Below are positions 36,076 through 62,451 of a DNA stretch of 64,000 nucleotides, piece by piece. A model generated the notes under the pieces. The model ran no database searches, was not told the DNA's origin, and worked only from the letters and a program-made list of their open reading frames with translations. The translations under genes were made by a program, and so were the position numbers. Numbering within the stretch: the stretch's first letter is position 1; each line of letters opens with the position of its first letter. The stretch covers positions 1,624,302 to 1,688,301 of the forward strand of contig CBDEVZ010000008.1 in assembly GCA_965243735.1 (NCBI GenBank), in the 5' to 3' direction. Source of the stretch: an uncultured Candidatus Binatia bacterium. GTDB taxonomy: Bacteria > Desulfobacterota > Binatia > Bin18.

Positions 36076-38169
36076 ATGGCCCCGGCGACCGGGGTGGTCA
36101 CCAGCTACCGGATTCTGCGCCAAGCGGGCGCCGGTCCACAGGAAGTCTATGTTGCGGACACCTACGCTGCTGGCGGGGCGGCGGTGACCTACACCGACGC
36201 CGACATCACGGTCGGCGAGACCTACCGGTATCAGGTTCAGGCGCTGAACGCGGGCGGAACCAGTCCCCCGTCCAACGAAGCAGTCCTGACTGCCACGAAT
36301 GCCATTTTCAGGGTGACCAGTGCCGGGCCGTTCACGGTCCAAGAAGGAACGACCGCCGTCGCCACGCTCACGGCCTCAGTCTCCAGCACGTCGAGCAACT
36401 CGCTGACCTGGTCTATTCCGTCCGGTCCAGCCGGCGGGGCGGACGGGCACGCGTTCTCGCTCAGTTCCTCCGGCAGCTTGACTTTCAGAGCCGCGAAGGA
36501 TTTCGAGGCGCCGGACGACGCCGACACGGACGGGATCTACGAAGTCACTGTGCAGGTAGACGGTGACGCGGAGGCAGCCCTCGCAGAGGCAACCCTCCGG
36601 GTGACTTTAGACAACGTTGATGAGCCGGCGGTGATCACCTTGTCAACGACGCAGCCGCAGGTTGGGCGTGCCCTGACCGCTACTCTGACCGATCCCGACG
36701 GCACCGTTTCCGGCATTACATGGACGTGGACGTCTTCCGCAGACCACACAAGCTGGACCCCGATCCCAGGAGCTGATTCGGCCGTCTACACACCGCAGGT
36801 CACCGACTTGGGGCACTACCTGCGGGTCACGGCCTCGTACATTGATGATGTCTTTGGGGCCGGCAGGAGCGCCCCGGCGGTGCTGACCGACATCGTGCAG
36901 GTCGCCCCGGTGCGGCGTCCCCCAGAGGGAGGGGGTGGCGGAGGGGGTAGAGGCAACGGCGGCGGCGGTCCTGCCTGCACCCAGGACGACGTGCACGGCA
37001 ACACCGCCGCCCAGGCGACTGTCATTGCCCTGGACACGCTGACGGCGGGGGCCATCTGTCCGGCCGCTGACGTGGATTATTTTACGGTCACCATCCCCGA
37101 GCGAGGGCTCGTCTTTGTCGAGACCACCGGCACGGGGCCGCTCCGGGGGACGATCTTGCAAGATGGCGTGGTCTGGGCATCCGGCCCGATAGGCGGAAGG
37201 CAGGCGCGCGGCCGGCTGGGGGTGCTCGTCCAGGCTGGCCCCGTGGTCGTGGCTGTCCAAGGCCAGGGGAGCGCGACCGGGGCGTACACCCTCGTCGTCA
37301 CCTTCGTGCGGGGCACTCTGGAGAACCCGAGGCCAGCGTCGTTCCAAAGTGGCGTCGGAGTGCTGTCAGGCTGGGTGTGTGAGGCCGAAGAGGTCGAGAT
37401 AGAGATTGTAGGGACTGGGCGGCAAGGGGCGGCGTACGGCACTGAGCGGCTGGACACGGCCGGCGTGTGTGGCGACACGAATAATGGCTTTGGCTTGTTA
37501 TTCAACTGGAACCTGCTGGGCGGCGGCGAGTATGAAGTGGTGGTCTTCGTCGATGGCCTCGTATTGGGCTGGGCAACAGTGCGGGTGACAACCCTGGGGG
37601 AGGAGTTTCTGCGAGACGTGGCAGGGGAGTGTATGGTGGCCGACTTTCCGAGCGCGGGCGAGAGCGTGCGGGTGGTGTGGCAAGAAGCGCAGCAGAGCTT
37701 CGTGCTGGCCGAGGGCAGCGCGCCGACCGGGGCTTCCCGCTCCGGGATAGCTGGGGTGGGCTTTCTGGAGAACCCGAGTGCCAACTCGTTTCAGAGCGGC
37801 ATCGGGGTGATTTCGGGCTGGGTGTGTGCGGCGGATGAGGTGATGATCACGATCGGGGACTTGGCCCCGCAGATGGCCGGCTACGGTACGGAGCGCCTGG
37901 ACACGTTGGCTGTGTGTGGGGACACGGACAACGGCTTCGGCTTGCTGTTCAACTGGAACCTACTGGGGGACGGGGAGCATGAAGTGATCGCCACGGTGGA
38001 TGGGACCGAGTTGGCCCGCACCACGGTGCGGGTGACGACGCTGGGGGAGGAGTTCGTACGGGACGCCGTGGGGGAATGCACGGTGGCGGACTTCCCGCAT
38101 CCGGGCGCGACGGTCACGCTCACCTGGCAGGAGTCCAGACAGAACTTTGTGATTAGCGAGATTGAGTGA
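36076..38169 (+). CDS. C-terminal portion of the LRR-FN3 gene: FN3, cadherin-like, Gly linker, PPC, tandem novel CTD (A 37311-37730, B 37759-38166)
   Basis: Its frame is open from ~36025 and encodes PTSLTATITSGGIALHWMAPATGVVTSYRILRQ, which continues the FN3 repeat of the upstream ORF. DVDYFTV PPC motif. The CTD tandem is the same as in the other giants. Confidence 0.75.
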   Translation: MAPATGVVTSYRILRQAGAGPQEVYVADTYAAGGAAVTYTDADITVGETYRYQVQALNAGGTSPPSNEAVLTATNAIFRVTSAGPFTVQEGTTAVATLTASVSSTSSNSLTWSIPSGPAGGADGHAFSLSSSGSLTFRAAKDFEAPDDADTDGIYEVTVQVDGDAEAALAEATLRVTLDNVDEPAVITLSTTQPQVGRALTATLTDPDGTVSGITWTWTSSADHTSWTPIPGADSAVYTPQVTDLGHYLRVTASYIDDVFGAGRSAPAVLTDIVQVAPVRRPPEGGGGGGGRGNGGGGPACTQDDVHGNTAAQATVIALDTLTAGAICPAADVDYFTVTIPERGLVFVETTGTGPLRGTILQDGVVWASGPIGGRQARGRLGVLVQAGPVVVAVQGQGSATGAYTLVVTFVRGTLENPRPASFQSGVGVLSGWVCEAEEVEIEIVGTGRQGAAYGTERLDTAGVCGDTNNGFGLLFNWNLLGGGEYEVVVFVDGLVLGWATVRVTTLGEEFLRDVAGECMVADFPSAGESVRVVWQEAQQSFVLAEGSAPTGASRSGIAGVGFLENPSANSFQSGIGVISGWVCAADEVMITIGDLAPQMAGYGTERLDTLAVCGDTDNGFGLLFNWNLLGDGEHEVIATVDGTELARTTVRVTTLGEEFVRDAVGECTVADFPHPGATVTLTWQESRQNFVISEIE

Positions 38170-38300: not shown

Positions 38301-41300
38301 GTCGGAGCGGAGCACATGCACGCACGAGGAACAAGAAGAATGCTGCTGCTGCTGGTTCTCCCGGCGGTGCTGTCATTGTGTACAGGTGGTCACGTCCAGG
38401 CTCAGGAGCCCGCCAGCGTCCCGGGGGTCGAGAAGGTCGCTTTCACGGACGGGATAGCTCGTTACAAACTGAACGACATCATCGAAGTGACGGTGACGTT
38501 CAGCGAGGTCGTAGCCGTTACCGGCACACCGCAAATCGACCTGACCATCGGCTCCATGACCCGCCAAGCCGACTATCAAAGCGGCCCGCCCTCGACAGCC
38601 CTGGTCTTCCGCTACACCGTGATGGACACCGATGAAGACACCGACGACGACGGGGCCACGGTTGACGCCAACGGTCTGAAGTTGAACGGCGGCAGCATCA
38701 AAAAACACAATACCGACATTGATGCCGACCTGACGCACGAGGCGCATGTGGAGCCGAAGTATATTAACACGGTCGACGGCATCACGCCGGTCCTGTCGAC
38801 CGCAGCGGCGTACGGCGACCAACTCGTGCTGACCTACGACGACACACTCTGGCCATATTCGCGGACGCCCGCCAGCGCCTACGTCGTGAAGGTGAACAAT
38901 GCGGTGCGCGGTGCCAGCACCCCCTTGATAAGCCACCGTTTCGTCACGCTCACCCTCGCTTCGGCGGTGCTGCCAAGCGATCAGGTGACGGTGAGTTACA
39001 TCGTTGGAGAGCATCCCGTCCGGGACGAGGCGGGCAACCAGGTAGCGGCGCTGGTCAACCAGGCAGTGACGACCTCCGCTCCGTATGTCAGCAGTCTGGA
39101 GATCAGCTCGTCGCCGGCGGCCCGCCGAACCTACGCCGGGGGGGAAGTGATCGAACTCAGGGTGACGTTCAGCGAGAGCGTCACGGTCACGGGCGCCCCT
39201 CGGCTCTTACTCACGTTCGAAAGTACTGGCCCCTATGAACGAGCCGCGCCCTACGTGAGTGGGTCGGGGACGACCGTCCTGGTGTTCAAGTACACTGTTG
39301 CTGAGGGGCTCGACCGCTTCTTTGTGTGGGCTCTGCGCCTGCTTGGGCGTTGGCGGGAGGAGCTGACGGTCGGAGACGAAGACCCCGACGGGTTGAGCAT
39401 CGCCGTCGACGCGCTGGACCTGAACGACGGGACCATCCGCGACAGCGACAACCAGGACGCGCTGCTGGTCCTCGACGAACTGACGGATGTCGGGGGACAC
39501 AAGGTGGATGGTCTCTGGCCACAGTCGGACGTGCTGAATGATCCGTATGTCGTCAATGGGGCGACGCTGATGTTGCACTATGAGGAAATGCTGGACGAGA
39601 ACTCGGTCCCAGCCGGCGATGCGTTCGCGGTGACCGCCGGGGGAACGATGCACGCAGTCACCGACGTTTCGATAGACGACAGGACGGTCACACTGACACT
39701 CGACACTCCGGTTGGAGCAAACGACGCGGTACGGTTGAGTTATACGGCGCCGACTGGAACGGAGGCAATGCCCGTCCAGGACTTGGTCGGAAACGATGCG
39801 CAAGATTTTACCGACCGGCTGGTGAGGCCGCCATTGGGTATTAGCGTGTCTTTTGGTGCTGACCGGTACACCGTGGACGAAGGGCAGGCCGTAGAGGTCA
39901 CGGTCCGGCTGAGTGCAGACCCGGAGCGCCGGGTGGAGATTCCGTTGGCGCTCACACCTGGGGACAATGTAGAGGCGTCTGATTATACGGGCGTCCCGCA
40001 CACGGTTGTGTTCAAGAGCGATGAGCGTGAACAGTCCTTTTCCTTCAGTGCCCTCGCCGATCAGGAGAATGAGCAATCCGAGACCGTCACCATCGGCTTC
40101 GATGCGTCGCTACCGACCGGGATGGAGGCGGGGAGTCCCGCCACCACGGTCGTGACAATCGTGCAGCCGCCTCAGCAAGAGGGGAACGGCCGCGACGAGG
40201 GCAGCAGCAATACGGCGCCGAGCGGGCAGCCGACCATTGCCGGCACGGAGCAGGTGGGCGAGACACTGACGGTGGACGTGAGTGGGATTACGGATCCGAA
40301 CGGACTCACGCAGGCCAGCTTCAGATACGAGTGGGTGCGGGTGGCCGGCGGCAGCGAGACGACTATAGCGGGCGCGACGGGTAGCGCCTACACGGTAACG
40401 GCCGCAGATGTGGGCAGCCGGCTCAAGGTGCGGGTGGGCTTCACGGACGATAACGGGACAGACGAGGCAGTGGAGAGTGCGCTGACGGGAGTAGTGGCGG
40501 CGGCGCCGGCGCCAGAGAACGGGGGCAGCGGGGGCGGCGGGGGCGGCGGCAGGGGCAGTGGAGGCGGCGGTAGTAGCGGCGGGGGCAGTGGAGGAAGTGG
40601 GGACGGCGGCAGTGGCGGTAGCGGCAGCAGTGGGGGCGGCGGGGGGTCGTCAGCGGAGCCGGTCGGGTACTTGGAGAACCCAGGGGACAATTCCTTTCAG
40701 AGCGGGCTTGGGGTGATTTCGGGCTGGGTGTGTGCGGCCGATACCGTCGAGATTGAACTCAACGGGGTGCCGCGCGTGGCGGCGTACGGGACCGAGCGGT
40801 TGGACACCCAAGGCGAGTGCGGGGACACGGACAACGGCTTTGGGTTGCTGTTCAACTGGAACCTGCTCGGGGATGGCGAGCATGAGGTCGTGGCCTACGC
40901 GGATGGCATTGAGTTGGGCCGTGTCACGGTGACGGTGATCACGCTGGGCGCGGAGTTTCTGCGGGGCGTGGCAGGGGAGTGTGTGGTGGCCGACTTCCCG
41001 AGTGCGGGCGAAAGTGTGCGACTGGTATGGCAGGAGGCGCAGCAGAATTTCGTGCTGGCCGAGGGCGCTGCGCCCACGGGCGTGACCCAATCCGGGACGC
41101 CCGGCGTCGGGGTTCTGGAGAACCCGAGCCCACACTCCTTTCAGAGTGGGATTGGCGTGCTGTCGGGCTGGGTCTGCGAGGCGGAGGAAGTCGTTATTAC
41201 GATTGGCGACCTGGCCCCACAAGTAGCCGGCTACGGCACCGAGCGGCTGGACACGTTGGATGTCTGCGGGGACACCGACAATGGCTTCGGCTTGCTGTTC

Positions 41301-41519
41301 AACTGGAACCTGCTGGGCGACGGGGCGCACGAAGTGGTGGCCAGCGCAGATGGGGTCGAGTTGGGCCGGACCACAGTGCGGGTGACGACCTTGGGCGAGG
41401 AGTTTGTGCGGGGCGCTGTGGGGGAGTGTGTGGTGGCGGACTTCCCGCATCCGGGCGAGACGGTGACGCTCACCTGGCAGGAGTCCAGCCAGAACTTTGT
41501 GATTACCGATCTGGAGTGA
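38292..41519 (+). CDS. Giant secreted protein: signal peptide, multiple Ig-like (SwmB/SbsA-like, GTP.L.L..G...Y.SG motif) domains, Calx-beta, long Gly/Ser linker, tandem novel CTD (A 40663-41090, B 41108-41516); no PPC
   Basis: 1075-aa ORF. Signal peptide MLLLLVLPAVLSLCTGGHVQA begins at the third in-frame ATG (38340). Over 170 nt of its CTD-A are identical to gene 23576..31786. Confidence 0.85.
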   Translation: MLVVGAEHMHARGTRRMLLLLVLPAVLSLCTGGHVQAQEPASVPGVEKVAFTDGIARYKLNDIIEVTVTFSEVVAVTGTPQIDLTIGSMTRQADYQSGPPSTALVFRYTVMDTDEDTDDDGATVDANGLKLNGGSIKKHNTDIDADLTHEAHVEPKYINTVDGITPVLSTAAAYGDQLVLTYDDTLWPYSRTPASAYVVKVNNAVRGASTPLISHRFVTLTLASAVLPSDQVTVSYIVGEHPVRDEAGNQVAALVNQAVTTSAPYVSSLEISSSPAARRTYAGGEVIELRVTFSESVTVTGAPRLLLTFESTGPYERAAPYVSGSGTTVLVFKYTVAEGLDRFFVWALRLLGRWREELTVGDEDPDGLSIAVDALDLNDGTIRDSDNQDALLVLDELTDVGGHKVDGLWPQSDVLNDPYVVNGATLMLHYEEMLDENSVPAGDAFAVTAGGTMHAVTDVSIDDRTVTLTLDTPVGANDAVRLSYTAPTGTEAMPVQDLVGNDAQDFTDRLVRPPLGISVSFGADRYTVDEGQAVEVTVRLSADPERRVEIPLALTPGDNVEASDYTGVPHTVVFKSDEREQSFSFSALADQENEQSETVTIGFDASLPTGMEAGSPATTVVTIVQPPQQEGNGRDEGSSNTAPSGQPTIAGTEQVGETLTVDVSGITDPNGLTQASFRYEWVRVAGGSETTIAGATGSAYTVTAADVGSRLKVRVGFTDDNGTDEAVESALTGVVAAAPAPENGGSGGGGGGGRGSGGGGSSGGGSGGSGDGGSGGSGSSGGGGGSSAEPVGYLENPGDNSFQSGLGVISGWVCAADTVEIELNGVPRVAAYGTERLDTQGECGDTDNGFGLLFNWNLLGDGEHEVVAYADGIELGRVTVTVITLGAEFLRGVAGECVVADFPSAGESVRLVWQEAQQNFVLAEGAAPTGVTQSGTPGVGVLENPSPHSFQSGIGVLSGWVCEAEEVVITIGDLAPQVAGYGTERLDTLDVCGDTDNGFGLLFNWNLLGDGAHEVVASADGVELGRTTVRVTTLGEEFVRGAVGECVVADFPHPGETVTLTWQESSQNFVITDLE

Positions 41520-54558: not shown

Positions 54559-56000
54559 GCGGCCACATGCACCGGCGGGCGCTTGTCGGCCCACGGCTTT
54601 GCCTCTTCCAGCTGAGCGGCCAGGCGCAGCAAGCCTGCCTCGTCCCCGAAACGACCGACAAACTGCACCCCAACCGGCAGGCCATCGGCGCTCCAGTGCA
54701 GGGGCAGCGAGATGGCCGGCTGACCGGTCGTATTGAACAGCGGCGTAAAGGGCACGTAGGAGAAGACCTGGCGGGTCCACTCCATCGCCGTCATACCGGC
54801 CCGGTTCTGGTTGACTTCTCCGTGCGGCGCGGGCGGTTTGGCAATGGTCGGCGTCACAAAGACATCGATGTCTTCAAAGAAGCGACCGACGATGCGGGAC
54901 AGGCGACCACCGTGGTCCATGGATTTCAGCAGATCAACCGCGCTGTATTTCTTGCCGTCTTCCCAGACGGCCAGCGTCACGGCTTCCAGTGTATCCGGGC
55001 TCGGCGAACGCCCCATTTCCGTAGCCAGACCTTCAATCGCCATGGTATTATACGCGGCCCAGATCACGTGAACGTTCTCAAGGAACTCCTCCCAGTCATA
55101 CTCCGGCCGGCCTTCATGCACCGTATGGCCGAGTTCCTCCAGTAGCCGCACGGTGTCATGGACCGCTCGCTCGCATTCCGGGTCAACCTTCTCGCCCGAA
55201 GCGGGTGCTGTGGTCCAGGCGATGCGCAGTGTCCCCGGCGCCGCACCTGGTTCCTCACGGTAGGGACGGGCTGGCGGGACCGGCAGGCCGGGCGCACCGG
55301 CATCGGCGCCGGCCACGATGTCGAGCAGCGTCGCGGAGTCGCGGACACTGCGCGAGACAACAAACTCACACGCCAGGCCGCACAGCGGATCAGAAAAGTC
55401 GGGTCCGGTCGGCACCCGGTCGCGCGAGGGCTTGAGGCCGACCAGACCGTTGCACGAGGCCGGAATACGGATAGAGCCGCCGCCGTCGTTGGCATGGGCA
55501 ACCGGCACGATACCGGCGGCGACCGACGCGGCGGACCCGCCGCTCGAACCGCCGGCGCTATGACCGGCCTTCCACGGGTTGTGGACCGGCCCGAACAGAA
55601 CGGTCTCGGTCGTCGGGTTATAGCCCAGCTCTGGGGTTTGGGTCGTGCCGGTCAGCACAAACCCGGCACGCCGAAAGCGCGCCATGAGTTCGGAATCCTC
55701 AGGGGCGACATAGCCCTGGGCCAGCCGTGAGCCCATGTCGAGGCGGACGCCCTTGGCGTGCAGAACCAGTTCTTTGATCAGAAACGGCACGCCGCTGAAG
55801 GGACCGTGCGGCAAGCCTGCCTGAATCTCGGCCCGTGCCTGGTCTGCCAGCACCTGGAGTACGGCGTTCAGTTGCGGGTTGAGCTTTTCGATGGCCTGGA
55901 CTGCGGTGGCCACCAGTTCTTCGGCGCTGACTTCGTTGCGCGCTACCAGCTCAGCCAGTCCGAGTCCGTCATACTTTGCATATTCACTCAGAGACAGCAT
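54555..56000 (-). CDS. Amidase (amidase-signature family)
   Basis: [14 protein letters not shown] amidase signature; 481 aa. Confidence 0.85.
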
Positions 56001-56104
56001 CGTTGCACCCTCCTTTGTTGGGGAGCCCCCAGCCTAGCATGTCGTACTCGAAAGCGTCCACGCATCGGCTGAGGGATCGCACCGTGAGAGAGTTTCTGCA
56101 CTTG

Positions 56105-57313
56105 CTACCGCAGCCCGGACCGCAGGGCCGCAAACCAGAACCCGACCGCGCCGAGGAGGGCCACGCCGAGGAGGACGCCGAGCATCCAGGCCGGGTCGCC
56201 GGTGGCGGTCCAGATGGCGGCCGTGCCGAGCGGGGCCAGGGCCGAGGCGACCATCATCGGCGCGCCCATCACCCCGATGGTCTTGGCGTAGTGCTCCCGG
56301 CCCAGCCACTCGGCCGGCGCCACCCCGCGCAGAATGCTGGTGATGCCGTTGGTGATGCCAAAGGCGGTCGCAAAGAGAATCAGCCAGCCGAGTCGGGGTG
56401 GCGAAACGAGCAGGATTGTGACCGCGCCGAGGCTGAGTGTCGTTGTCAGCGCACCGACCAGACTGATGCGCGCCCGCTCGCCAAAGGCCATCATCGTCAG
56501 GCGTCCGACGAACTGCATCGGACCGATCAAAGCGGCCGCAATCACGATGGTAGCCGTCTCGACCCCGATTGACTTGAGATACGGCACGAGCTGAAACACG
56601 AGGCCGGACAGGCTGGCCCACCAGGCCGTGAACCACACGCACAGTCCCCAGAACAGCGGGTCGCGCAGGCGCAGGCGCATGACTGCCCGAGCCTCGTCCG
56701 AGGACGAGGGCGCGGCATCCTCGGCAGTGCTGCGAGCGAGGGATCGCGACGGCATCAGCCACCAGTGGATGGGAATGCAGATACAGACGTGGAGACCGGC
56801 CAGCACCAGCAGCACCTCGCGCCAGGTGAGCACGGTCAGGAGGCTTTCAATCAGGGGGATGAACACCGTGCTGGCAAAGCCGGCGACGAGGGTCAGGGCG
56901 GTAATCGCCCGCCGGGCGTCGGTCCCAAAGTGCTGGGTGAGGACGGCAAAAGCGGGATCATACAGGATGGCCGCCATGCACGCGCCGAGTCCCAGCCAGA
57001 CGGCGTACAAGGCCACGGGCTGTTCGACCTGCGACCAGACTGCCAGGAGCAGACTCGCGCCCAGCGAGCCGCCGGTCATGATGACCCGCCCGCCGTAGCG
57101 GTCGATAATTGCCCCGACCGGATAGGCGCACAGCCCGGCCGTCAGCAGGCCGACGGTGGCGGCGCCGTTGAGCAGCGGCAGGGACCAGCCGAACGCGTCG
57201 GCCATGGGCAGGACGAACAACGGGAAGCCGTAGAAGATCGATCCCCAGGACACGATCTGAGCGCTGCCGAGCGCCGTAATAATCACGGCCGGATGCCGCC
57301 TCAGCGATTGCAT
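56105..57313 (-). CDS. MFS transporter
   Basis: 12 predicted TM helices with MFS-like loop motifs. Confidence 0.8.
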   Translation of the reverse strand: MQSLRRHPAVIITALGSAQIVSWGSIFYGFPLFVLPMADAFGWSLPLLNGAATVGLLTAGLCAYPVGAIIDRYGGRVIMTGGSLGASLLLAVWSQVEQPVALYAVWLGLGACMAAILYDPAFAVLTQHFGTDARRAITALTLVAGFASTVFIPLIESLLTVLTWREVLLVLAGLHVCICIPIHWWLMPSRSLARSTAEDAAPSSSDEARAVMRLRLRDPLFWGLCVWFTAWWASLSGLVFQLVPYLKSIGVETATIVIAAALIGPMQFVGRLTMMAFGERARISLVGALTTTLSLGAVTILLVSPPRLGWLILFATAFGITNGITSILRGVAPAEWLGREHYAKTIGVMGAPMMVASALAPLGTAAIWTATGDPAWMLGVLLGVALLGAVGFWFAALRSGLR

Positions 57314-57490
57314 GGATCGAATACCGGGTTCGGCCTCGCGGGGCCAACACAGGGATCACGGATGCGTGCCTGCCGACCCTAGCAGGACGCAGCCTGGAAC
57401 AAAACCGTCCGTACCGGGCGGGTGGTGTCTCACTTTGCAATTCTCTTTTCTCGGTAGGGGCGACGCATGCGTCGCCCCTACTCCTGACGC

Positions 57491-57570
57491 AGAAATCCCC
57501 CTGCGCTTCGCGCTTCCCCCTTTGACAAAGGGAACAACATACTTGAAACACACCAACTGATCCGCTAGAC
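57491..57570 (+). repeat. Inverted copy of the IS1595-element terminal repeat (partner of 60205-60283)
   Basis: CCCCCTTTGACAAAGGGAACAACATACTTGAAACACAC matches the reverse complement of 60238-60275 (CCCCCTTTGTCAAGGGAACAATATACTTGACGCACAG) with a few mismatches. Similarity extends to ...TAGACTCTCCC versus ...TAGACTGTCCC. Confidence 0.5.
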
Positions 57571-57764
57571 TCTCCCCCGTCTCACTCTCAAGCGTATGGC
57601 TCGATAGGTCGGGCCTGCGGTTGAATACCACAGTGGCGTGAGACGGAGGAGTAGCTACCCCCGTCGCCGCGAATAGACCGCACAATCTCAGCCATACGCT
57701 GTGAGTGGGACACGGCCCGGCAACTCTCACCCGTCGCGGCCGTGTCCTGCCACAGGAGGCCGCT

Positions 57765-58847
57765 ATGAAGGTGGTTGCGTTCGTGCTCGTGTTCCTTTGT
57801 CCGTCCTTGTCGTTTTGCTCCTCCGCTCATGCCTGGGTCCAGCTTGGCAACTGGGTGGTTCCCGCGAAGGAACTGACCGTGGTCATCAGCCGGTTTTGCC
57901 TGGACTGGCCGACGGGCTGGCAGCTCTCCACCGGCGACCCATGTCTTCGGTATACGGACGATGAGTGGAGGTCGGCCATCAGCAGCGCGGGCCACGAATG
58001 GAATGACGTCGGGAGTAGTTTCACCTTCCATTTCAGAATGGCGCGCGGCGAGGATCATCCCTGTCAACGCTCGGGCGAGGTGTTCGTGATTTTAGCGTTG
58101 CCTCACCAAGCGTGTCCGGGGGATTCGCCGATGGGGAGCGCGGCTGGGAAGGCCGTGTTTACGGGGTCCGCAAGTCCCTCCCCGCGCATTTATATCAACG
58201 CGCACTACCTCAACGCGTACTACACGATTGGTACGTCCTGGATGAGTCTGCGACGGGTCATCCTGCATGAACTCGGGCATGTGCTGGGGCTCGGGCATCC
58301 CCCCGCTCATGTCCAAGCCGTCATGGTGCCGGGTTCCGAATGGCTCCGCTTACAGCCCGACGACATAGCCGGCATTCTGGCGCTCTATCCGCCCGAGCCC
58401 GCCCATACGATTGTGGTGATAGAAAATCCGCTCTTCGAGTCGGCCCAGAGCGGGATCAGTGTGATTTCTGGGTGGGTGTGTGACGCGGAATCCCTCCGCC
58501 TCTTCATCACGCCTGCGGGGAATTGGTACGAGCATCTGGTTGTCACCGGCATTCCCTACGGCGGAGATCGGGCCGACACCGAGAGTCACTGCGGGGACCG
58601 CGACAACGGCTTCGGGCTGCTCTTCAACTGGAACACGCTCGGGGACGGCGAGTACTATGTGATGGTGGAAACCGATGACGGCCGCTTCAGTTGGGCTGCC
58701 GTGACCGTCACCACACTCGGGGAGGAATTCCGACGCGGACTGGAGGGGACATGGGAGGTAGACGGCTTTCCCGACCCGAACAGCTCCGTCACGATTGAGT
58801 GGTCCGAGGCGCTACAAAACTTCGTGATTGTGGAGCATAATCCTTAG
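57765..58847 (+). CDS. Secreted matrixin-like (M10) zinc metalloprotease with a single C-terminal copy of the novel CTD (58419-58844)
   Basis: RBS AGGAGG then ATG 57765. Signal peptide MKVVAFVLVFLCPSLSFCSSAHA. HELGHVLGLGHP followed by Met-turn AVMVP. C-terminus ...SGISVISGWVC...CGDRDNGFGLLFNWNTLGDGE...VTTLGEEFRRG...ALQNFVIVE. Confidence 0.8.
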   Translation: MKVVAFVLVFLCPSLSFCSSAHAWVQLGNWVVPAKELTVVISRFCLDWPTGWQLSTGDPCLRYTDDEWRSAISSAGHEWNDVGSSFTFHFRMARGEDHPCQRSGEVFVILALPHQACPGDSPMGSAAGKAVFTGSASPSPRIYINAHYLNAYYTIGTSWMSLRRVILHELGHVLGLGHPPAHVQAVMVPGSEWLRLQPDDIAGILALYPPEPAHTIVVIENPLFESAQSGISVISGWVCDAESLRLFITPAGNWYEHLVVTGIPYGGDRADTESHCGDRDNGFGLLFNWNTLGDGEYYVMVETDDGRFSWAAVTVTTLGEEFRRGLEGTWEVDGFPDPNSSVTIEWSEALQNFVIVEHNP

Positions 58848-58860
58848 CCCGAAACGCGCC

Positions 58861-58886
58861 GGGCCAGGGCGGCCACCCTGGCCCGG
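58861..58886 (+). terminator. GC hairpin GGGCCAGGG-CGGCCAC-CCTGGCCC
   Basis: 9-bp perfect stem 14 nt after the stop. No T-tract follows, so weak as an intrinsic terminator. Confidence 0.3.
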
Positions 58887-58914
58887 ACCAACACACACCT
58901 AGAAGGAGGTTGTG

Positions 58915-59136
58915 ATGGCAAACTCACCAGAAGAGCTAGAAGGACAGATCGTTGCCCTACGTGCCTTTATGGCGCACCTTGCGTTGCGTGTTGCCCCGAT
59001 CCCGCAAGTCTACGATGATTTTTTGAAGGCGGTGCAAAATGCCCCCATTCCTCCCATTCTCTCTCCCGCTCAGAGCCGGGGCTGGGATGAATTGTGCAAG
59101 GGGCTGGCTGCTGACTTGAAAATCATTCGTCCTTGA
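58915..59136 (+). CDS. Small (73 aa) hypothetical protein
   Basis: Strong RBS (GAAGGAGG) 7 nt before the ATG. No recognisable domain. Confidence 0.4.
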   Translation: MANSPEELEGQIVALRAFMAHLALRVAPIPQVYDDFLKAVQNAPIPPILSPAQSRGWDELCKGLAADLKIIRP

Positions 59137-59139
59137 CAT

Positions 59140-60283
59140 GCCCCGACTTTACCCTTTTGCGCTTGGCTTTACCAGTCAAGCGTTTCTTCGGAGGAGGGGC
59201 AGGCTGTGGCGGGGTGTTGAGCCCCGCTTTCAGCAGCTCCTCAAAGGTCAGATTGATCTTCGTTGGCATTAGCGCGTCAACTCCTCGTAAGTCAGCCGTT
59301 CCCCGATCCCGGCTTTCAGGATCGCATTGACGCGCTGGGCGCTGCTGAGCGGCAGCATGTTCCAGCGGTGCGAGAACTCAGCCAGGTAGCGGGGCAAGTG
59401 CTTCTGCGAGAAGTCGTGGAAGACGCCATGATAGCCGCGCTTGAGCAAGGCCCAGAACGACTCCACGCCGTTCGTATGGGCTTTGCCCCGGACGTACTCC
59501 CCGGCGCTGTGATTGACTGTCTCATGGGTCAGGCGGTTGAACAGGCTCGGCAGGCCGGTATAGCCGCTGTGTTCGTCCGTGTAGACGGTCGCACCCGGGT
59601 CGGTGGCACCTTCCACGAACGGAATGAGCGTGGCCCGGTCGGGCTGGTCGATCTGCCGGGCAACGGCCTGGCCGCTGGTCCGCGACACCACCCCGGCCAC
59701 GGCCATCTTGTTTGCCGTGCCCCGGCCCGGCAGCTTCTGGCTGTCATGGCGGTTCTTTTGCCGACCGCCGAAGTAGCTCTCGTCGGCTTCGACTGGCCCC
59801 GGCAACGTCCCGGCTGCGCTGCCAGCGTGCTCGGCCGCCTTGCGTAGCCGGCCCAGGACGAACCAGGCCGTCTTTTGCGTCGTGCCGATCTCCCGAGCGA
59901 GCTGGTAGCTGCTGATCCCTTTGCGGCTCGTCGTCACCAGGAAGGCCGCCAAGTACCACTTCCGCAGCGGCAAGCGGCTCTCCTCGTACACCGTGCCCTT
60001 GCGGACGCTGAACTGCTTTTTGCAGTCCCCGCACCAGTAACGCCCAGGCCGGGGCAGCCGGTTAAAGTGGCGCGTGCTCGCGCAGAGCGGGCAAATCATG
60101 CCGTTCGGCCAGCGCAAGGCGGCCAGGTGTTCGGCGCAGGCGGCTTCGTCAGGAAAGGCGTCAAGGAGGCCCAGGACATTGTTGTACCCATGATTGTTGC
60201 TCATAGGGACAGTCTACTTGATTTCTTACTGTGCGTCAAGTATATTGTTCCCTTGACAAAGGGGGATTGAGGGGAATTTACCC
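59140..60283 (-). mobile_element. IS1595-family insertion sequence
   Basis: Carries the transposase 59269..60204. Right-end inverted repeat is 60205-60283. Left end is not clearly defined, apart from a strong inverted copy at 57491-57570. Confidence 0.7.
59269..60204 (-). CDS. IS1595-family (ISXO2-like) DDE transposase with N-terminal zinc ribbon
   Basis: CPLC...CGDC zinc ribbon. ESYFGG..., DEHSGY and NGVESFWALLKR motifs typical of DDE_Tnp_IS1595. Confidence 0.9.
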   Translation of the reverse strand: MSNNHGYNNVLGLLDAFPDEAACAEHLAALRWPNGMICPLCASTRHFNRLPRPGRYWCGDCKKQFSVRKGTVYEESRLPLRKWYLAAFLVTTSRKGISSYQLAREIGTTQKTAWFVLGRLRKAAEHAGSAAGTLPGPVEADESYFGGRQKNRHDSQKLPGRGTANKMAVAGVVSRTSGQAVARQIDQPDRATLIPFVEGATDPGATVYTDEHSGYTGLPSLFNRLTHETVNHSAGEYVRGKAHTNGVESFWALLKRGYHGVFHDFSQKHLPRYLAEFSHRWNMLPLSSAQRVNAILKAGIGERLTYEELTR

Positions 60284-60436
60284 GTCGTGGCGACCACCTT
60301 CAGAGCAGGCCGCTGGGGATGAGACAGGCAATCATTGGCAATTGGAGAATTCTGTGCTTGACTCGGCACACACGCAGGTGCCGCGGTTTGGGCGCGGGTC
60401 CTGCGATTCCATTCGATTGGACAGGCCAGTTCTGCC

Positions 60437-61375
60437 ATGAAAGTCGCCACCGGACGTGGATTCTATGAGCGCTATGGCGCGCCGGCCCGACACATTGCGC
60501 CGGATATCGGCTGGGCCCTGCTGGAAGCGGACGGCTCGTGGTCAGAGCCGCCCGACGCGTGCGAGCTGATCGTCCTGGCCGGCGATGCCTACACCCGGGC
60601 GTTTGTTGACACGGTCTCGGCCCTGCCCGAACCGCGCTGGGCGCACACCGAGGACGCCGGCGTGGACGGGCCTTTTTATGACGCCATGCGCGCCAAGGGC
60701 GTGATGCTGACCCACAGCCCGGGGGCCAACGCGCCCGAGGTGGCCGAGTTTGCGCTGAGTTTCATCCTGTGGACGGCCAAGCGGCTGGGTGACTTGCAGG
60801 CTCAGCAGCGGGCTCGCGAATGGCGGCTGCTTGAGCTGCAAAGCCTGAGCGACAAGACGCTGCTGGTTATCGGTCTGGGCGCGATCGGCAGCCGCGTTGC
60901 GCGCTACGCCAAGGGCTTTGGCATGCGGGTGCTGGGGCTGAGACAGTCTGCGGCTGCGGTCGAGCAGGTTGATCAACAGGGCACGCTGGCCGAGCTGGAG
61001 ACGTTTTTAGCCGAGGCCGATTTTGTGGTGGTGGCGCTGCCGCTCACGCCCCAGACCCGGGGACTGATCGGCCGGACACAGCTGGCCCGGATGAAACCGG
61101 GCGCGACCCTGGTCAATATTGCCCGTGGGGCGATTGTGGATACCGGGGCGGTCCGGGACGCCCTGGTGGCGGGTCGGCTTGGGCAAGCCTGTCTGGACGT
61201 GCTGCCGACCGAGCCGTGGCCAAAAGACGACCCCCTGTGGGAGACGCCGAATCTGTTCCTGACCCCGCATAACGCCTGGTCCTCGCCCCTGTATGTGCCC
61301 CGCGTGGCAGACATCTGGCTGGATAACCTGGGGCGCTATGTGCGGGGTGAGGCGCTGTTGCATCGGGCCTTCTGA
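60437..61375 (+). CDS. D-isomer-specific 2-hydroxyacid dehydrogenase (NAD-binding)
   Basis: GLGAIGSRVA Rossmann motif; catalytic-domain pattern. Confidence 0.8.
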   Translation: MKVATGRGFYERYGAPARHIAPDIGWALLEADGSWSEPPDACELIVLAGDAYTRAFVDTVSALPEPRWAHTEDAGVDGPFYDAMRAKGVMLTHSPGANAPEVAEFALSFILWTAKRLGDLQAQQRAREWRLLELQSLSDKTLLVIGLGAIGSRVARYAKGFGMRVLGLRQSAAAVEQVDQQGTLAELETFLAEADFVVVALPLTPQTRGLIGRTQLARMKPGATLVNIARGAIVDTGAVRDALVAGRLGQACLDVLPTEPWPKDDPLWETPNLFLTPHNAWSSPLYVPRVADIWLDNLGRYVRGEALLHRAF

Positions 61376-61383
61376 GCCCGTTC

Positions 61384-62451
61384 TCACAGCTTGTCCATCA
61401 CCTGACGGGCGAAATCCTCGATGACCTGGTACTGGGTCTCAAACGACGGCAGCAGCATGAGCTGCTTGAGCCCGGCCTGCTCCAGCCCGCGAACCTGATC
61501 AATGATCTCCTCCGGGCTGCCGGCCAGACACGTCGATTTGATCAGCTCAGGCGTGACGAATTTGGCCTCTTCGGGCAGCAGATAGGTGCAGTGCCCGGCG
61601 TGGATGCGCATATGCCGGTGGGTCTCGGGGGTGGCCTCGACCTGGGCGCTGTACTCGTCCCATATCTGGCGCAGGTGGCCCGGTGGGTCGCCGCCGAACT
61701 GGCGAATCTTGTCGTACAGGTAATGGATGGAGGCGATCACAAACGCGCCGCACTCGCGCAGCACGCGCTCGGAGTTGAGGGATTCGCCCGGCCGCAAAAT
61801 CACCGCCGTGGTCAGCGAGGCCGTATAAAAGTCGTCGGCCAGGCTCCGCCCGGCGCGCTGAGCCCCGGCCTCGGCGTTCTGCAAGGCGCGGTGCATGAAG
61901 CCGGGGTTGGGCGGCACCGACATGACCAGGCCCTCGCCGTACTCCCCGGCCAGGGCCTGGGCCTTGGGGCCGAAACCGGACACGTACAGCGGGATGGGTT
62001 CCTCGACATTGATGAACTTGTGGTCCTGCATCAGGAACTGGACCGGATGGGTCTGACCCTGCCAGCTGAAGTCGACCTCCTGGCCGCGCAACAGGCCGCG
62101 CAGCACCCGCAGGTAGTCGGCGAACTCCTTGAGTTTCATCGGCTTGTGGCCCATCAGCCGGGTGGCCGTGTTGCCGGTGCCGATGCCCAGGAAGGTCCGG
62201 CCCGGAGCCAGCTGGTTAATGGTGGCGATGCTGTTGGCCGTGACCGGTGCCAGGCGGGTGCCGGCCACCGACACCCCGGTCCCGATCTTCATGCGACGGG
62301 TCTGCTGGGCGGCCAGGGCCAGAACCGCGTAACAGTCCGACCAGATCATCTGGCTGTCGGCTATCCAGGCGTGCGAATAGCCGAGGTTCTCGGCGTGGGT
62401 GATATAGCCGATCTCGTCGATCTTCGAGGCGGTACAAATCCCAAAATCCAT
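61384..62451 (-). CDS. LLM-class (luciferase-like) flavin-dependent oxidoreductase
   Basis: TIM-barrel LLM pattern (MDFGI...LGYSHAWIADSQ). Confidence 0.8.
   Translation of the reverse strand: MDFGICTASKIDEIGYITHAENLGYSHAWIADSQMIWSDCYAVLALAAQQTRRMKIGTGVSVAGTRLAPVTANSIATINQLAPGRTFLGIGTGNTATRLMGHKPMKLKEFADYLRVLRGLLRGQEVDFSWQGQTHPVQFLMQDHKFINVEEPIPLYVSGFGPKAQALAGEYGEGLVMSVPPNPGFMHRALQNAEAGAQRAGRSLADDFYTASLTTAVILRPGESLNSERVLRECGAFVIASIHYLYDKIRQFGGDPPGHLRQIWDEYSAQVEATPETHRHMRIHAGHCTYLLPEEAKFVTPELIKSTCLAGSPEEIIDQVRGLEQAGLKQLMLLPSFETQYQVIEDFARQVMDKL

What the first reader, a model, noticed from the sequence alone, without database searches (positions are those of the whole stretch)
57491..60283. Matrixin-CTD gene sits between inverted repeats of an IS1595-family element: possible cargo-carrying transposon
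The 60-80 bp adjoining the transposase start (60205-60283) has a clear inverted copy at 57491-57570 (CCCCCTTTG[A/T]CAA[A]GGGAACAA[C/T]ATACTTGA..., continuing to ...TAGACT[C/G]TCCC). No comparably good repeat lies at the expected other end just beyond the transposase stop (~59140-59200). The IR-bounded unit 57491-60283 (2.8 kb) therefore contains the secreted matrixin-CTD gene, a 73-aa ORF and the transposase. Either the IS has captured and can mobilise a CTD-family protease gene, or 57491-57570 is a solo remnant of a second IS copy and the two could form a composite.
Basis: seen in the sequence. Interest (0 to 1): 0.6.

Follow-up and report, generated by a model that had tools for sequence, protein, structure and literature searches.

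The report
Cargo-carrying IS1595 element with RNA leader
The inverted repeats are real and bound a single 2.7-kb mobile element of a known type (an IS1595-family "transporter IS") that carries a secreted metalloprotease gene behind a conserved, apparently undescribed structured RNA leader.

Summary
The mobile unit is 57530-60252 (2,723 bp). Its inverted repeats (57530-57576 and 60206-60252) begin GGGAAC, and a perfect 8-bp target duplication, TTGACAAA, flanks it. That target is a 19-nt palindrome, CCCCCTTTGACAAAGGGGG, inside a roughly 215-bp MITE-like repeat. No alternative end lies near 59140. Sister elements with 75-93% identical transposases sit at other sites. All of those with both ends defined are 2.2-3.9 kb and carry cargo, and several have clean duplications. 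This makes it a transporter IS, a kind already described for the IS1595 family.

Three things seem new.
- The backbone includes a ~190-nt leader just inside the left repeat. It is 84-87% identical between sister elements whose cargo proteins are only 38% identical or differ in domain content. A covariance model finds 12 distinct copies, all beside IS1595 transposase genes; 22 of 31 base pairs show compensatory changes, and Rfam has no match.
- Eight of twelve related elements sit in the same palindrome.
- Here the nested pair replaces an ABC-transporter operon found in relatives.

The parts
57530..60252 (-). Whole transporter IS (tIS), 2,723 bp; the strand given is that of the transposase gene
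   Evidence: Inverted repeats plus an 8-bp target duplication. Sister elements with the same ends: L080 231-2483, L083 4421-7515, L084 2879-6109, L212 5953-9861, L214 5953-8824, L215 5955-8519.
57522..57529 (.). Left copy of the target-site duplication, TTGACAAA
   Evidence: Identical 8-mer abutting both repeats. Removing one copy rebuilds the 19-nt palindrome CCCCCTTTGACAAAGGGGG, which is found intact in at least 120 metagenome contigs.
60253..60260 (.). Right copy of the target-site duplication, TTGACAAA
57530..57576 (+). Left inverted repeat (IRL), GGGAACAACATACTTGA...
   Evidence: 35 of 47 positions match the reverse complement of 60206-60252, and 16 of the first 17.
60206..60252 (-). Right inverted repeat (IRR), next to the transposase start codon
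57543..57571 (+). Inward-facing promoter-like site in IRL (TTGAAA, 17 nt, TAGACT)
   Evidence: Consensus scan: 4 sites found against 0.7 expected; this one mirrors the site in IRR. Function is inferred.
60211..60239 (-). Inward-facing promoter-like site in IRR (TTGACG, 17 nt, TAGACT), 6 nt before the transposase ATG
   Evidence: The spacing suggests a leaderless or nearly leaderless mRNA (inference).
57577..57764 (+). Conserved structured leader; the covariance-model core is 57583-57707
   Evidence: Fold z-score -3.6. The IRL-plus-leader stretch 57530-57770 is 83.5% and 87.3% identical to L212 and L214. Model R1 scores 137.8 bits here. Across 12 copies, 22 of 31 pairs show double changes. No Rfam match at E<=10.
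57765..58847 (+). Cargo gene: secreted M10 (matrixin-like) metalloprotease with a ~140-aa C-terminal domain, 360 aa
   Evidence: PF00413, 35.6 bits against a cut-off of 24, covering only the C-terminal part of the profile. HELGHVLGLGH at 168-178 and a signal-peptide-like N-terminus ending AHA|W at residue 23. The C-terminal domain has 14 more copies in the window.
58915..59136 (+). 73-aa ORF, doubtful as a gene
   Evidence: No Pfam hit. No similarity to the ORF at the same position in L214.
59123..59269 (-). Small basic ORF, 48 aa (MPTKINLTFEELLKAGL...KKRLTGKAKRKR); its ATG overlaps the transposase stop codon (TAATG)
   Evidence: Translation. Homologues in L084, L212, L214 and L215 at 50-78% identity, and in L080 and L002 by eye. 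No Pfam hit.
59269..60204 (-). IS1595-family transposase, 311 aa
   Evidence: PF12762 3e-38 and PF12760 1e-11. NF033547, 190 bits against a cut-off of 75. D141, D210, E248, K255 and two CxxC pairs.
57421..57529 (+). A arm of the outer MITE-like shell, ending in the left half of the palindrome
   Evidence: 77% identical to L015 4770-4862 and 74% to L027 6059-6158. Arm alignment.
60253..60350 (+). B arm of the outer shell; its outer terminus has decayed in this window
   Evidence: 90% identical to L015 8814-8890, 81% to L027 and 82% to L002. Alignment.

Best explanation
Positions 57530-60252 are one IS1595-family transporter IS (tIS): a single pair of inverted repeats enclosing the transposase gene and passenger genes. 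Its DDE transposase, with an N-terminal zinc ribbon, would bind the GGGAAC termini, cut and paste the whole 2.7-kb unit, and leave an 8-bp duplication. Here it landed in the centre of a 19-nt palindrome inside a small MITE-like repeat. Each inverted repeat carries an inward-facing promoter-like site. The right one sits 6 nt before the transposase ATG, and a small basic ORF is translationally coupled to the transposase. The left one would transcribe a ~190-nt structured leader followed by the cargo gene, a secreted M10 metalloprotease whose C-terminal domain is common among this genome's proteins. Across sister elements the transposase, small ORF, leader and repeats are kept while the coding sequence behind the leader differs. 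The element therefore looks like a mobile expression platform whose payload is exchangeable. Shown directly: the ends, the duplication, the protein families, the repeated layout at other sites, and the conservation and covariation of the leader. Inferred: promoter activity, transcription of the leader, current mobility, and how cargo is exchanged.
For: Ends and duplication:
- The repeats match at 16/17, 20/25 and 35/47 positions.
- TTGACAAA is duplicated 8 of 8.
- No other match to the repeat tip exists in the window.

Transposase family.

Independent insertions with the same kind of GGGAA termini and clean duplications:
- L083/L084, CTTCTGTC, on a plasmid-like contig.
- L215/L216, TT(T)CGGAAA.
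- L027, TTTGTCAA.
- L212, TTGTCAA.
- L004, ATAATAAA, and L005, AAAAAAAT.

Layout at other loci: L212 and L214 have the window's layout. The transposase part is 81% identical, and the IRL-plus-leader part 83.5% and 87.3% identical. An M10 gene lies inside the element in L083/L084 and L212, and downstream of the transposase in L001.

Size: every element with both ends defined is 2.2-3.9 kb.

Synteny: relatives carry an ABC operon, not a protease gene, between the MFS and dehydrogenase genes, so the protease is not resident at this locus.

Leader.

Literature:
- tIS are described as IS-like elements with passenger genes, restricted so far to the IS1595 and IS66 families (bioRxiv 10.1101/2021.05.26.445724; PMC3129680).
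- IS1595 members usually have 8-bp duplications and a zinc finger plus a DDE domain (PMC8101967).
Against: - Only one copy is visible in the window, and the identical transposase is recorded on a single contig, so recent movement in this genome is not shown.
- The repeats are imperfect beyond the first 17 nt.
- The target is itself palindromic, so in this window alone the flanks could be read as a longer repeat with one indel. The call rests partly on sister elements.
- Three sister elements (L080-82, L214, L015) lack clean duplications.
- The M10 proteins of elements with 81-88% identical transposases are only 38-40% identical, so the cargo was not simply inherited with the element.
- No precise empty site was found in relatives; an ABC operon occupies that position.
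Confidence: 0.85

Rival explanations
1. The transposing unit is the larger structure, about 57421 to 60350. In this reading the A and B arms are long terminal repeats starting GGTRGTGTCTCASTTTGAAA, and the inner GGGAAC repeats and their 'duplication' are only internal symmetry of those ends.
For: - The outer arms are conserved at 74-90% in L002, L015, L027 and L080-82.
- The outer unit has its own 8-bp duplication in L015 (GGGGCAGG, 8 of 8) and L027 (CACCGGC, 7 of 8).
- No free palindrome was seen in about 1.0 Mb of the loci sampled here.
Against: - The inner element moves by itself: L083/84, L215/216, L004 and L005 have GGGAA termini with clean duplications and no A or B arms.
- Three different IS types, with 43-45% identical transposases, occupy the same position in the same shell, which requires insertion into the shell.
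- The intact palindrome is abundant without any IS: at least 120 contigs, none encoding a related transposase.
- L202 is an unoccupied A-like shell.
- The two readings are not exclusive, because the shell with its guest may also have moved as one unit.
Confidence: 0.07
2. The left repeat is a solo remnant of a second IS copy, and the protease gene is a resident chromosomal gene trapped between it and an ordinary ~1.1-kb IS. This would make a potential composite, not a unit.
For: The repeats diverge after about 17 nt. Only one copy is in the window. The small ORF directly follows the transposase gene, so a compact transposase-plus-small-ORF core exists.
Against: - The 8-bp duplication brackets the whole 2.7 kb.
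- There is no repeat-like sequence between 58850 and 59270.
- There is no transposase fragment beside the left repeat.
- The 240 nt at the left end are 84-87% identical in L212 and L214, which lie between different host genes.
- Relatives have no protease gene at this locus.
Confidence: 0.04
3. The similarity is incidental: both flanks simply contain halves of a host palindromic repeat, and nothing here is a defined mobile unit.
Against: The similarity continues 47 nt inside the duplication, with matching promoter-like hexamers. The same termini bound elements at sites that are not palindromic.
Confidence: 0.02

Closest known systems
Transporter IS (tIS) of the IS1595 family (Siguier, Gagnevin and Chandler 2009, cited in PMC3129680 and PMC8101967; definition in the TnCentral preprint 10.1101/2021.05.26.445724)
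   Same: One pair of inverted repeats, one zinc-ribbon plus DDE transposase, an 8-bp duplication, and passenger genes unrelated to transposition inside the repeats. Size 2.2-3.9 kb against about 1 kb for plain members.
   Different: The cargo here is a secreted M10 protease. These elements also share a conserved structured leader in front of the cargo and a small basic ORF. I found neither in Rfam nor in the papers I could read. The original 2009 paper was not available to me.
ISNwi1 subgroup of IS1595 (from memory of ISfinder: ends ggnnatTAT, DDEK motif, variants with passenger genes of 1.75-4.75 kb)
   Same: Termini GGGAATTAT (L027, L004), GGGAACTAT (L080, L083, L005) and GGGAACAAT (window). 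A D, D, E, K(+7) arrangement. Sizes fall in that range.
   Different: Subgroup assignment was not tested: no ISfinder access, and the consensus is recalled, not checked.
IS elements that insert into repeated extragenic palindromes (IS1397 and ISKpn1 in enterobacterial REP/BIME; from memory)
   Same: Insertion into the central part of a dispersed palindromic repeat. Eight of twelve related elements here sit at one position in one palindrome.
   Different: Those are IS3-family elements with 3-4-bp duplications and a different repeat. The palindrome here (AAATCCCCC..CCCCCTTTGWCAAAGGGGG..GGGGGATTT) was not found in any paper searched nor in Rfam.
Composite transposons (two IS copies flanking cargo)
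   Same: Cargo lies between IS-type inverted repeats.
   Different: There is no second transposase gene or fragment, and one duplication flanks the whole unit.
IS-encoded structured RNAs (IS110 bridge RNA, IS200/IS605 omega RNA; from memory)
   Same: A conserved structured RNA encoded next to an IS end.
   Different: Those RNAs serve other enzyme types: the IS110 serine recombinase and the TnpB nuclease of IS200/IS605. Here the enzyme is a DDE transposase, and the RNA always lies upstream of a cargo gene on the same strand, which points to a leader. No complementarity to the target or the ends was noticed.

Membership tests
IS1595 family | Transposase with a DDE_Tnp_IS1595 catalytic domain | tested here: met
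   PF12762 E=3e-38 over positions 2-153 of 153. NF033547, 190.1 bits against a cut-off of 75. D141, D210, E248, K255.
IS1595 family | N-terminal zinc-ribbon domain (all groups except IS1016; PMC8101967) | tested here: met
   PF12760 E=1e-11 at residues 18-64. CxxC at 38-41 and 58-61.
IS1595 family | Terminal inverted repeats | tested here: met
   57530-57576 against 60206-60252: 16/17, 20/25, 35/47. The termini start GG.
IS1595 family | 8-bp target-site duplication | tested here: met
   TTGACAAA, 8 of 8. Also 8 of 8 in L083/84, L027, L004 and L005; 7 bp in L212.
Transporter IS (tIS) | Passenger genes unrelated to transposition inside a single pair of repeats | tested here: met
   The M10 protease gene and its leader lie between the repeats. 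There is no internal repeat.
Transporter IS (tIS) | The whole unit, cargo included, occurs at different sites | tested here: met
   L212 and L214 have the same layout between different host genes. L083/84 lie on a plasmid-like contig. The cargo coding sequences are diverged, so identical-cargo copies were not seen.
Composite transposon | Two IS copies, or a copy plus a recognisable remnant, flanking the cargo | tested here: not met
   No second transposase sequence beside the left repeat.
ISNwi1 subgroup | End consensus and motif pattern as listed in ISfinder | not testable with these tools
   The consensus is recalled from memory only. The termini look compatible.
Peptidase M10 (matrixin) | HExxHxxGxxH zinc site and a Pfam score above the gathering threshold | tested here: met
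   HELGHVLGLGH at 168-178. PF00413, 35.6 bits against 24, but only profile positions 96-158 are matched. AVMVP follows the zinc site, Met-turn-like, read from the sequence.
Any Rfam RNA family (for the leader) | Covariance-model match | tested here: not met
   No match at E<=1 over 56000-61500 or at E<=10 over 57540-57790. In L004 only a 12.8-bit chance hit.
MITE (for the outer A-B shell) | Short, non-coding, with terminal inverted repeats and a target duplication | tested here: inconclusive
   About 215 bp once the guest IS is removed. Outer termini GGTRGTGTCTCASTTTGAAA. Duplications in L015 (8 of 8) and L027 (7 of 8). In the window the B terminus has decayed and no duplication can be read. 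One free A-like copy, cut off at the contig end (L202).

The most novel reading that the evidence does not exclude
The ~125-nt structured RNA behind the left repeat would be a new RNA class that belongs to IS1595-family transporter ISs and does more than act as a passive 5' UTR. It could be a regulatory platform read by the element's own small arginine/lysine-rich protein. Or it could be the fixed landmark at which cargo genes are swapped, which would explain why elements with 81% identical transposase genes carry unrelated payloads directly after an 84-87% identical leader.
Probability: 0.15. Interest if true: 0.75.

Novelty: new variant of a known kind. Interest (0 to 1): 0.55.

Why it matters
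Transporter ISs blur the line between insertion sequences and transposons, and few have been described in detail. This group shows a modular design: a conserved mobility core (repeats, transposase, small ORF) and a conserved promoter-plus-leader, with payloads that differ between close relatives. The payloads seen are a secreted protease, other secreted or membrane proteins and, in L015 (which lacks the leader motif), a methyltransferase-like protein. If the leader is functional, it is a candidate new RNA class with 12 distinct examples and strong covariation. That is enough to design in-line probing, reporter and protein-binding experiments. The repeated use of one palindrome as a landing site also gives a defined target for studying how IS1595 transposases choose sites. 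For annotating this genome, the practical point is that the protease gene at 57765-58847 is mobile DNA and not part of the conserved locus.

Tried and rejected
- Exact-protein look-ups of the transposase, the protease and P0001 found nothing on record. The source genome is not among the species representatives scanned.
- I first thought the A and B arms might be long IS ends. I dropped this once L083/84 showed a duplication directly at GGGAAC, and once the palindrome turned up intact in unrelated contigs.
- No clean empty site exists in relatives. They carry an ABC operon at that position.
- The 14-mer GGGAGTAGCTACCC gave only chance hits in viral contigs, and the covariance model found no motif there.
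- Four IS1595 loci on plasmids of cultured bacteria have no motif.
- The small ORFs and the C-terminal domain gave no Pfam assignment.
- The 73-aa ORF is not conserved.
- The palindrome sequence is in no paper of the searchable library.
- The two reviews that list IS1595 subgroups were not held.
- A PtaRNA1 hit at 58854-58921 (22 bits against a threshold of 47, E=0.44) was dismissed as chance.
Full report
**1. The observation**

The repeat is real. The repeat finder gives arms 57517-57576 and 60206-60265 (60 nt, 72% complementary). A pairwise alignment carries weaker similarity out to about 57491 and 60283. The 30-nt core pattern is not expected by chance: 0 matches in 100 shuffles. The genes inside are as described:
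- a 360-aa protein with a Peptidase_M10 match (57765-58847);
- a 73-aa ORF (58915-59136);
- a 311-aa transposase (59269-60204, minus strand) with PF12762 and PF12760 matches and the NCBIfam IS1595 model at 190 bits against a cut-off of 75.

**2. Where the element really ends**

Reading the two junctions side by side shows an 8-bp direct repeat. The left junction is ...CCCCCT TTGACAAA | GGGAACAACATACTTGA.... The right junction is ...TCAAGTATATTGTTCCC | TTGACAAA GGGGGATTGAGG.... The element is therefore 57530-60252 (2,723 bp).

Its inverted repeats agree at 16/17, 20/25 and 35/47 positions. No other place in the window matches the 25-nt tip at 17/25 or better, so there is no hidden end near 59140-59270.

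Removing the element and one copy of TTGACAAA rebuilds ...AAATCCCCCTGCGCTTCGCGCTTCCCCCTTTGACAAAGGGGGATTGAGGGGAATTT.... This is a palindrome with a 19-nt core.

**3. Is the duplication an artefact of a palindromic target?**

Sister elements settle this. The closest transposases (75-93% identical) were fetched with their surroundings.
- L083/L084 lie on a plasmid-like contig with replicase and ParA genes. Their transposase is 88% identical. The element GGGAACTATGTACTTGACGCAAC...GTTGCGTCAAGTACATAGTTCCC is flanked by a perfect, non-palindromic CTTCTGTC. It contains the transposase gene, a 72-aa ORF, a 406-aa Peptidase_M10 gene and a small ORF.
- L215/L216 are flanked by TT(T)CGGAAA.
- L004 is flanked by ATAATAAA and L005 by AAAAAAAT, both 8 of 8.
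- L027 (TTTGTCAA) and L212 (TTGTCAA) sit in the same palindrome as the window element.
- L080-82, L214 and L015 lack clean duplications.

Every element with both ends defined is 2.2-3.9 kb. No ~1.1-kb version was seen.

**4. The same layout elsewhere**

L212 (transposase 81% identical; between a DEAD helicase gene and a TetR gene) and L214 (81%; beside a TauD gene) have the window's order. From the right repeat it runs transposase, then small ORF; on the other strand lie the cargo, the leader and the left repeat.

Against the window, the transposase part is 81% identical. The 240 nt of left repeat plus leader are 83.5% and 87.3% identical. The cargo protein is only 38% identical in L212, and in L214 it shares only the C-terminal domain.

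L083/84 hold the cargo block in the other arrangement. L001 (93% identical transposase) has an M10 gene with the same leader 1.1 kb downstream.

So the mobility core and the leader are the stable parts, and the coding payload changes.

**5. Locus history**

In relatives with 84-86% nucleotide identity across the flanks, the MFS gene and the 2-hydroxyacid dehydrogenase gene are separated by an ABC-transporter operon (an ABC_tran gene and an 861-aa MacB/FtsX gene). Homology to the window stops at 57406 and resumes at 60436. The protease gene is therefore not a resident of this locus, and the mobile DNA occupies the operon's place. How the operon was lost is unknown.

**6. The landing site**

The palindrome halves are embedded in two ~100-nt arms: A at 57421-57529 and B at 60253 to about 60350. 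These arms are 74-90% identical to arms flanking other IS1595 elements in Binatia assemblies (L002, L015, L027, L080-82, L212).

The arms end in GGTRGTGTCTCASTTTGAAA. In L015 and L027 they are bracketed by their own duplications, GGGGCAGG (8 of 8) and CACCGGC (7 of 8). The shell is thus probably a MITE-like element of about 215 bp, with the IS nested at its centre. In the window the outer B terminus has decayed, so this cannot be checked here.

The core palindrome is far more widespread.
- 114 of 125 sites with enough flanking sequence have AAATCCCC or GGGGATTT beside them.
- None of these contigs encodes a related transposase.
- L202 is an unoccupied A-like shell.
- Neither Rfam nor the paper library knows the sequence.

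Eight of twelve related elements, belonging to three different IS types, sit at the same position of this palindrome. No free copy was present in about 1.0 Mb of the loci held here. This argues for strong target preference. The shell may also sometimes move together with its guest.

**7. The leader**

Between the left-repeat promoter-like site (TTGAAA, 17 nt, TAGACT) and the protease ATG lie 190 nt that fold well (z-score -3.6).

In the window/L212/L214 alignment, a 10-bp closing helix changes at three pairs in a fully compensatory way: GCGUAUGGCU with AGCCAUACGC becomes GCACAAGGCU with AGCCUUGUGC.

A covariance model built from five sequences finds 12 distinct copies. They are in the window, L001, L080-82, L212 and L214, and also in loci whose transposases are only 41-47% identical: L004, L005, L010, L014, L027, L035 and L038. 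These come from Binatia, Alphaproteobacteria and Chloroflexi assemblies.

The model finds nothing in several controls:
- the rest of the window, and the syntenic loci without an IS;
- 604 kb of other loci, best E=0.85;
- 687 kb of viral contigs;
- four IS1595 loci on plasmids of cultured bacteria, best E=0.85.

On the 12-sequence alignment:
- 89.8% of cells form standard pairs, against 35-43% when the partners are slid;
- 22 of 31 pairs show changes on both sides;
- no shuffle out of 500 reaches the observed values.

This alignment was fitted to the model, which favours the structure. An independent five-sequence MAFFT and RNAalifold run gave the same helices, with 15 of 51 pairs compensatory.

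Conserved unpaired stretches are UGAAUACCA.AG and GCGAAUAG. The hairpin loop AGUAGCUA contains a 6-nt palindrome, and in L212 it is replaced by another one, UCAUGA.

Where the ends are defined (window, L212, L214, L080, L004, L005, L027), the motif lies inside the element. It is always upstream of, and on the same strand as, the next ORF. Those ORFs encode varied products: M10 with the C-terminal domain, the C-terminal domain alone, small secreted proteins, membrane proteins and others.

Rfam has no match, even at E<=10.

My reading is that this is a cis-acting leader belonging to the element's cargo-expression module. Its ligand or partner is unknown.

**8. Other conserved parts**

A 48-aa basic ORF (59123-59269, minus strand) starts at the transposase stop codon (TAATG). 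It has homologues in L002, L080, L083/84, L212, L214 and L215. It has no Pfam match. It is a candidate accessory or regulatory protein.

The 73-aa ORF is not conserved and is doubtful as a gene.

**9. Comparison with what is known**

Transporter ISs are defined as IS-like elements with passenger genes and are reported only for the IS1595 and IS66 families. IS1595 members typically have 8-bp duplications, a zinc finger and a DDE domain. All of these features were tested here and met.

The element is therefore a member of a known kind. Its termini resemble the ISNwi1-group consensus as I recall it, but this was not tested.

What I could not find described:
- the conserved structured leader;
- the small ORF;
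- the preference for this palindrome.

**10. Verdict**

Confidence that this is a single cargo-carrying IS1595 tIS is 0.85. Interest is moderate (0.55). The class of element is known, but the RNA motif is a well-supported candidate for something new.

Noticed in passing
window 57583-57707 (leader 57577-57764); also L212 9681-9808(-), L214 8646-8773(-), L001 1832-1954, L080 1753-1874, L004 6457-6579, L014 6981-7108(-), L035 6290-6415, L027 4347-4467(-), L005 7045-7160(-), L038 7883-8011(-), L010 4215-4338: A structured RNA motif with strong covariation, found only beside IS1595 transposase genes in the sequence I held and absent from Rfam 15. It always lies upstream of the first cargo gene.
   Followed up: yes
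window 57493-57529 plus 60253-60279 (split by the IS); intact in L085-L204: A widespread dispersed palindrome, AAATCCCCC(N3-12)CCCCCTTTGWCAAAGGGGG(N3-4)GGGGGATTT. It occurs in at least 120 metagenome contigs of 29-73% GC, sometimes several copies per contig. No Rfam or literature match. It serves as the landing site for several IS1595 elements.
   Followed up: partly
window 57421-57529 and 60253-~60350; L015 4768-4862/8814-8905; L027 1250-1347/6069-6158: A MITE-like shell of about 215 bp with termini GGTRGTGTCTCASTTTGAAA and its own 8-bp duplications in L015 and L027. Three different IS types are nested at its centre.
   Followed up: partly
window 57407-60435 against L205 2616-5999: The shell plus IS occupies exactly the place where relatives have a 3.4-kb ABC-transporter operon (ABC_tran and MacB/FtsX genes). 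The mechanism of loss is unknown.
   Followed up: partly
window 3758-4633, 10431-11270, 18243-19088, 21557-22441, 30938-31777, 37282-38160, 40653-41510: Fourteen more copies of the protease's ~140-aa C-terminal domain (44-50% identical), arranged as seven tandem pairs. The same domain sits on a CAP-family protein next to the IS in L083. No Pfam match.
   Followed up: no
window 59123-59269 (-): A conserved 48-aa ORF with a lysine/arginine-rich tail, translationally coupled to the transposase gene. In L080 and L083/84 it sits at the other end of the element, behind the other repeat's promoter-like site.
   Followed up: partly
window alignment column for P5 loop, 57650-57657; L212 equivalent: The hairpin loop holds a 6-nt palindrome, UAGCUA. 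In L212 it is replaced by a different 6-nt palindrome, UCAUGA. This hints at loop-loop dimerisation or a symmetric binding site.
   Followed up: no
window 57454-57481: A perfect 28-nt palindrome (GTAGGGGCGACGCA|TGCGTCGCCCCTAC) in the A arm. It replaces a shorter hairpin present in the A arms of L015 and L027.
   Followed up: no
L002 1258-2064: An ~800-bp insert with two ORFs lies between the transposase gene and the small ORF. It is bracketed by the direct repeat GGAGTTGACG and may mark a cargo-entry point.
   Followed up: no
L083 7150-7226 against L083 4320-4395 and L084 5618-5810: L083 carries a second copy of the neighbouring CAP gene's 5' end inside the element, in place of most of the 89-aa ORF seen in L084. 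This is either a rearrangement or an assembly chimera.
   Followed up: no
L015 4947-8573: A sister tIS whose cargo is an 892-aa protein with an NPPY motif, which looks like an N6-adenine methyltransferase. Its flanks rejoin to the palindrome with no duplication.
   Followed up: no
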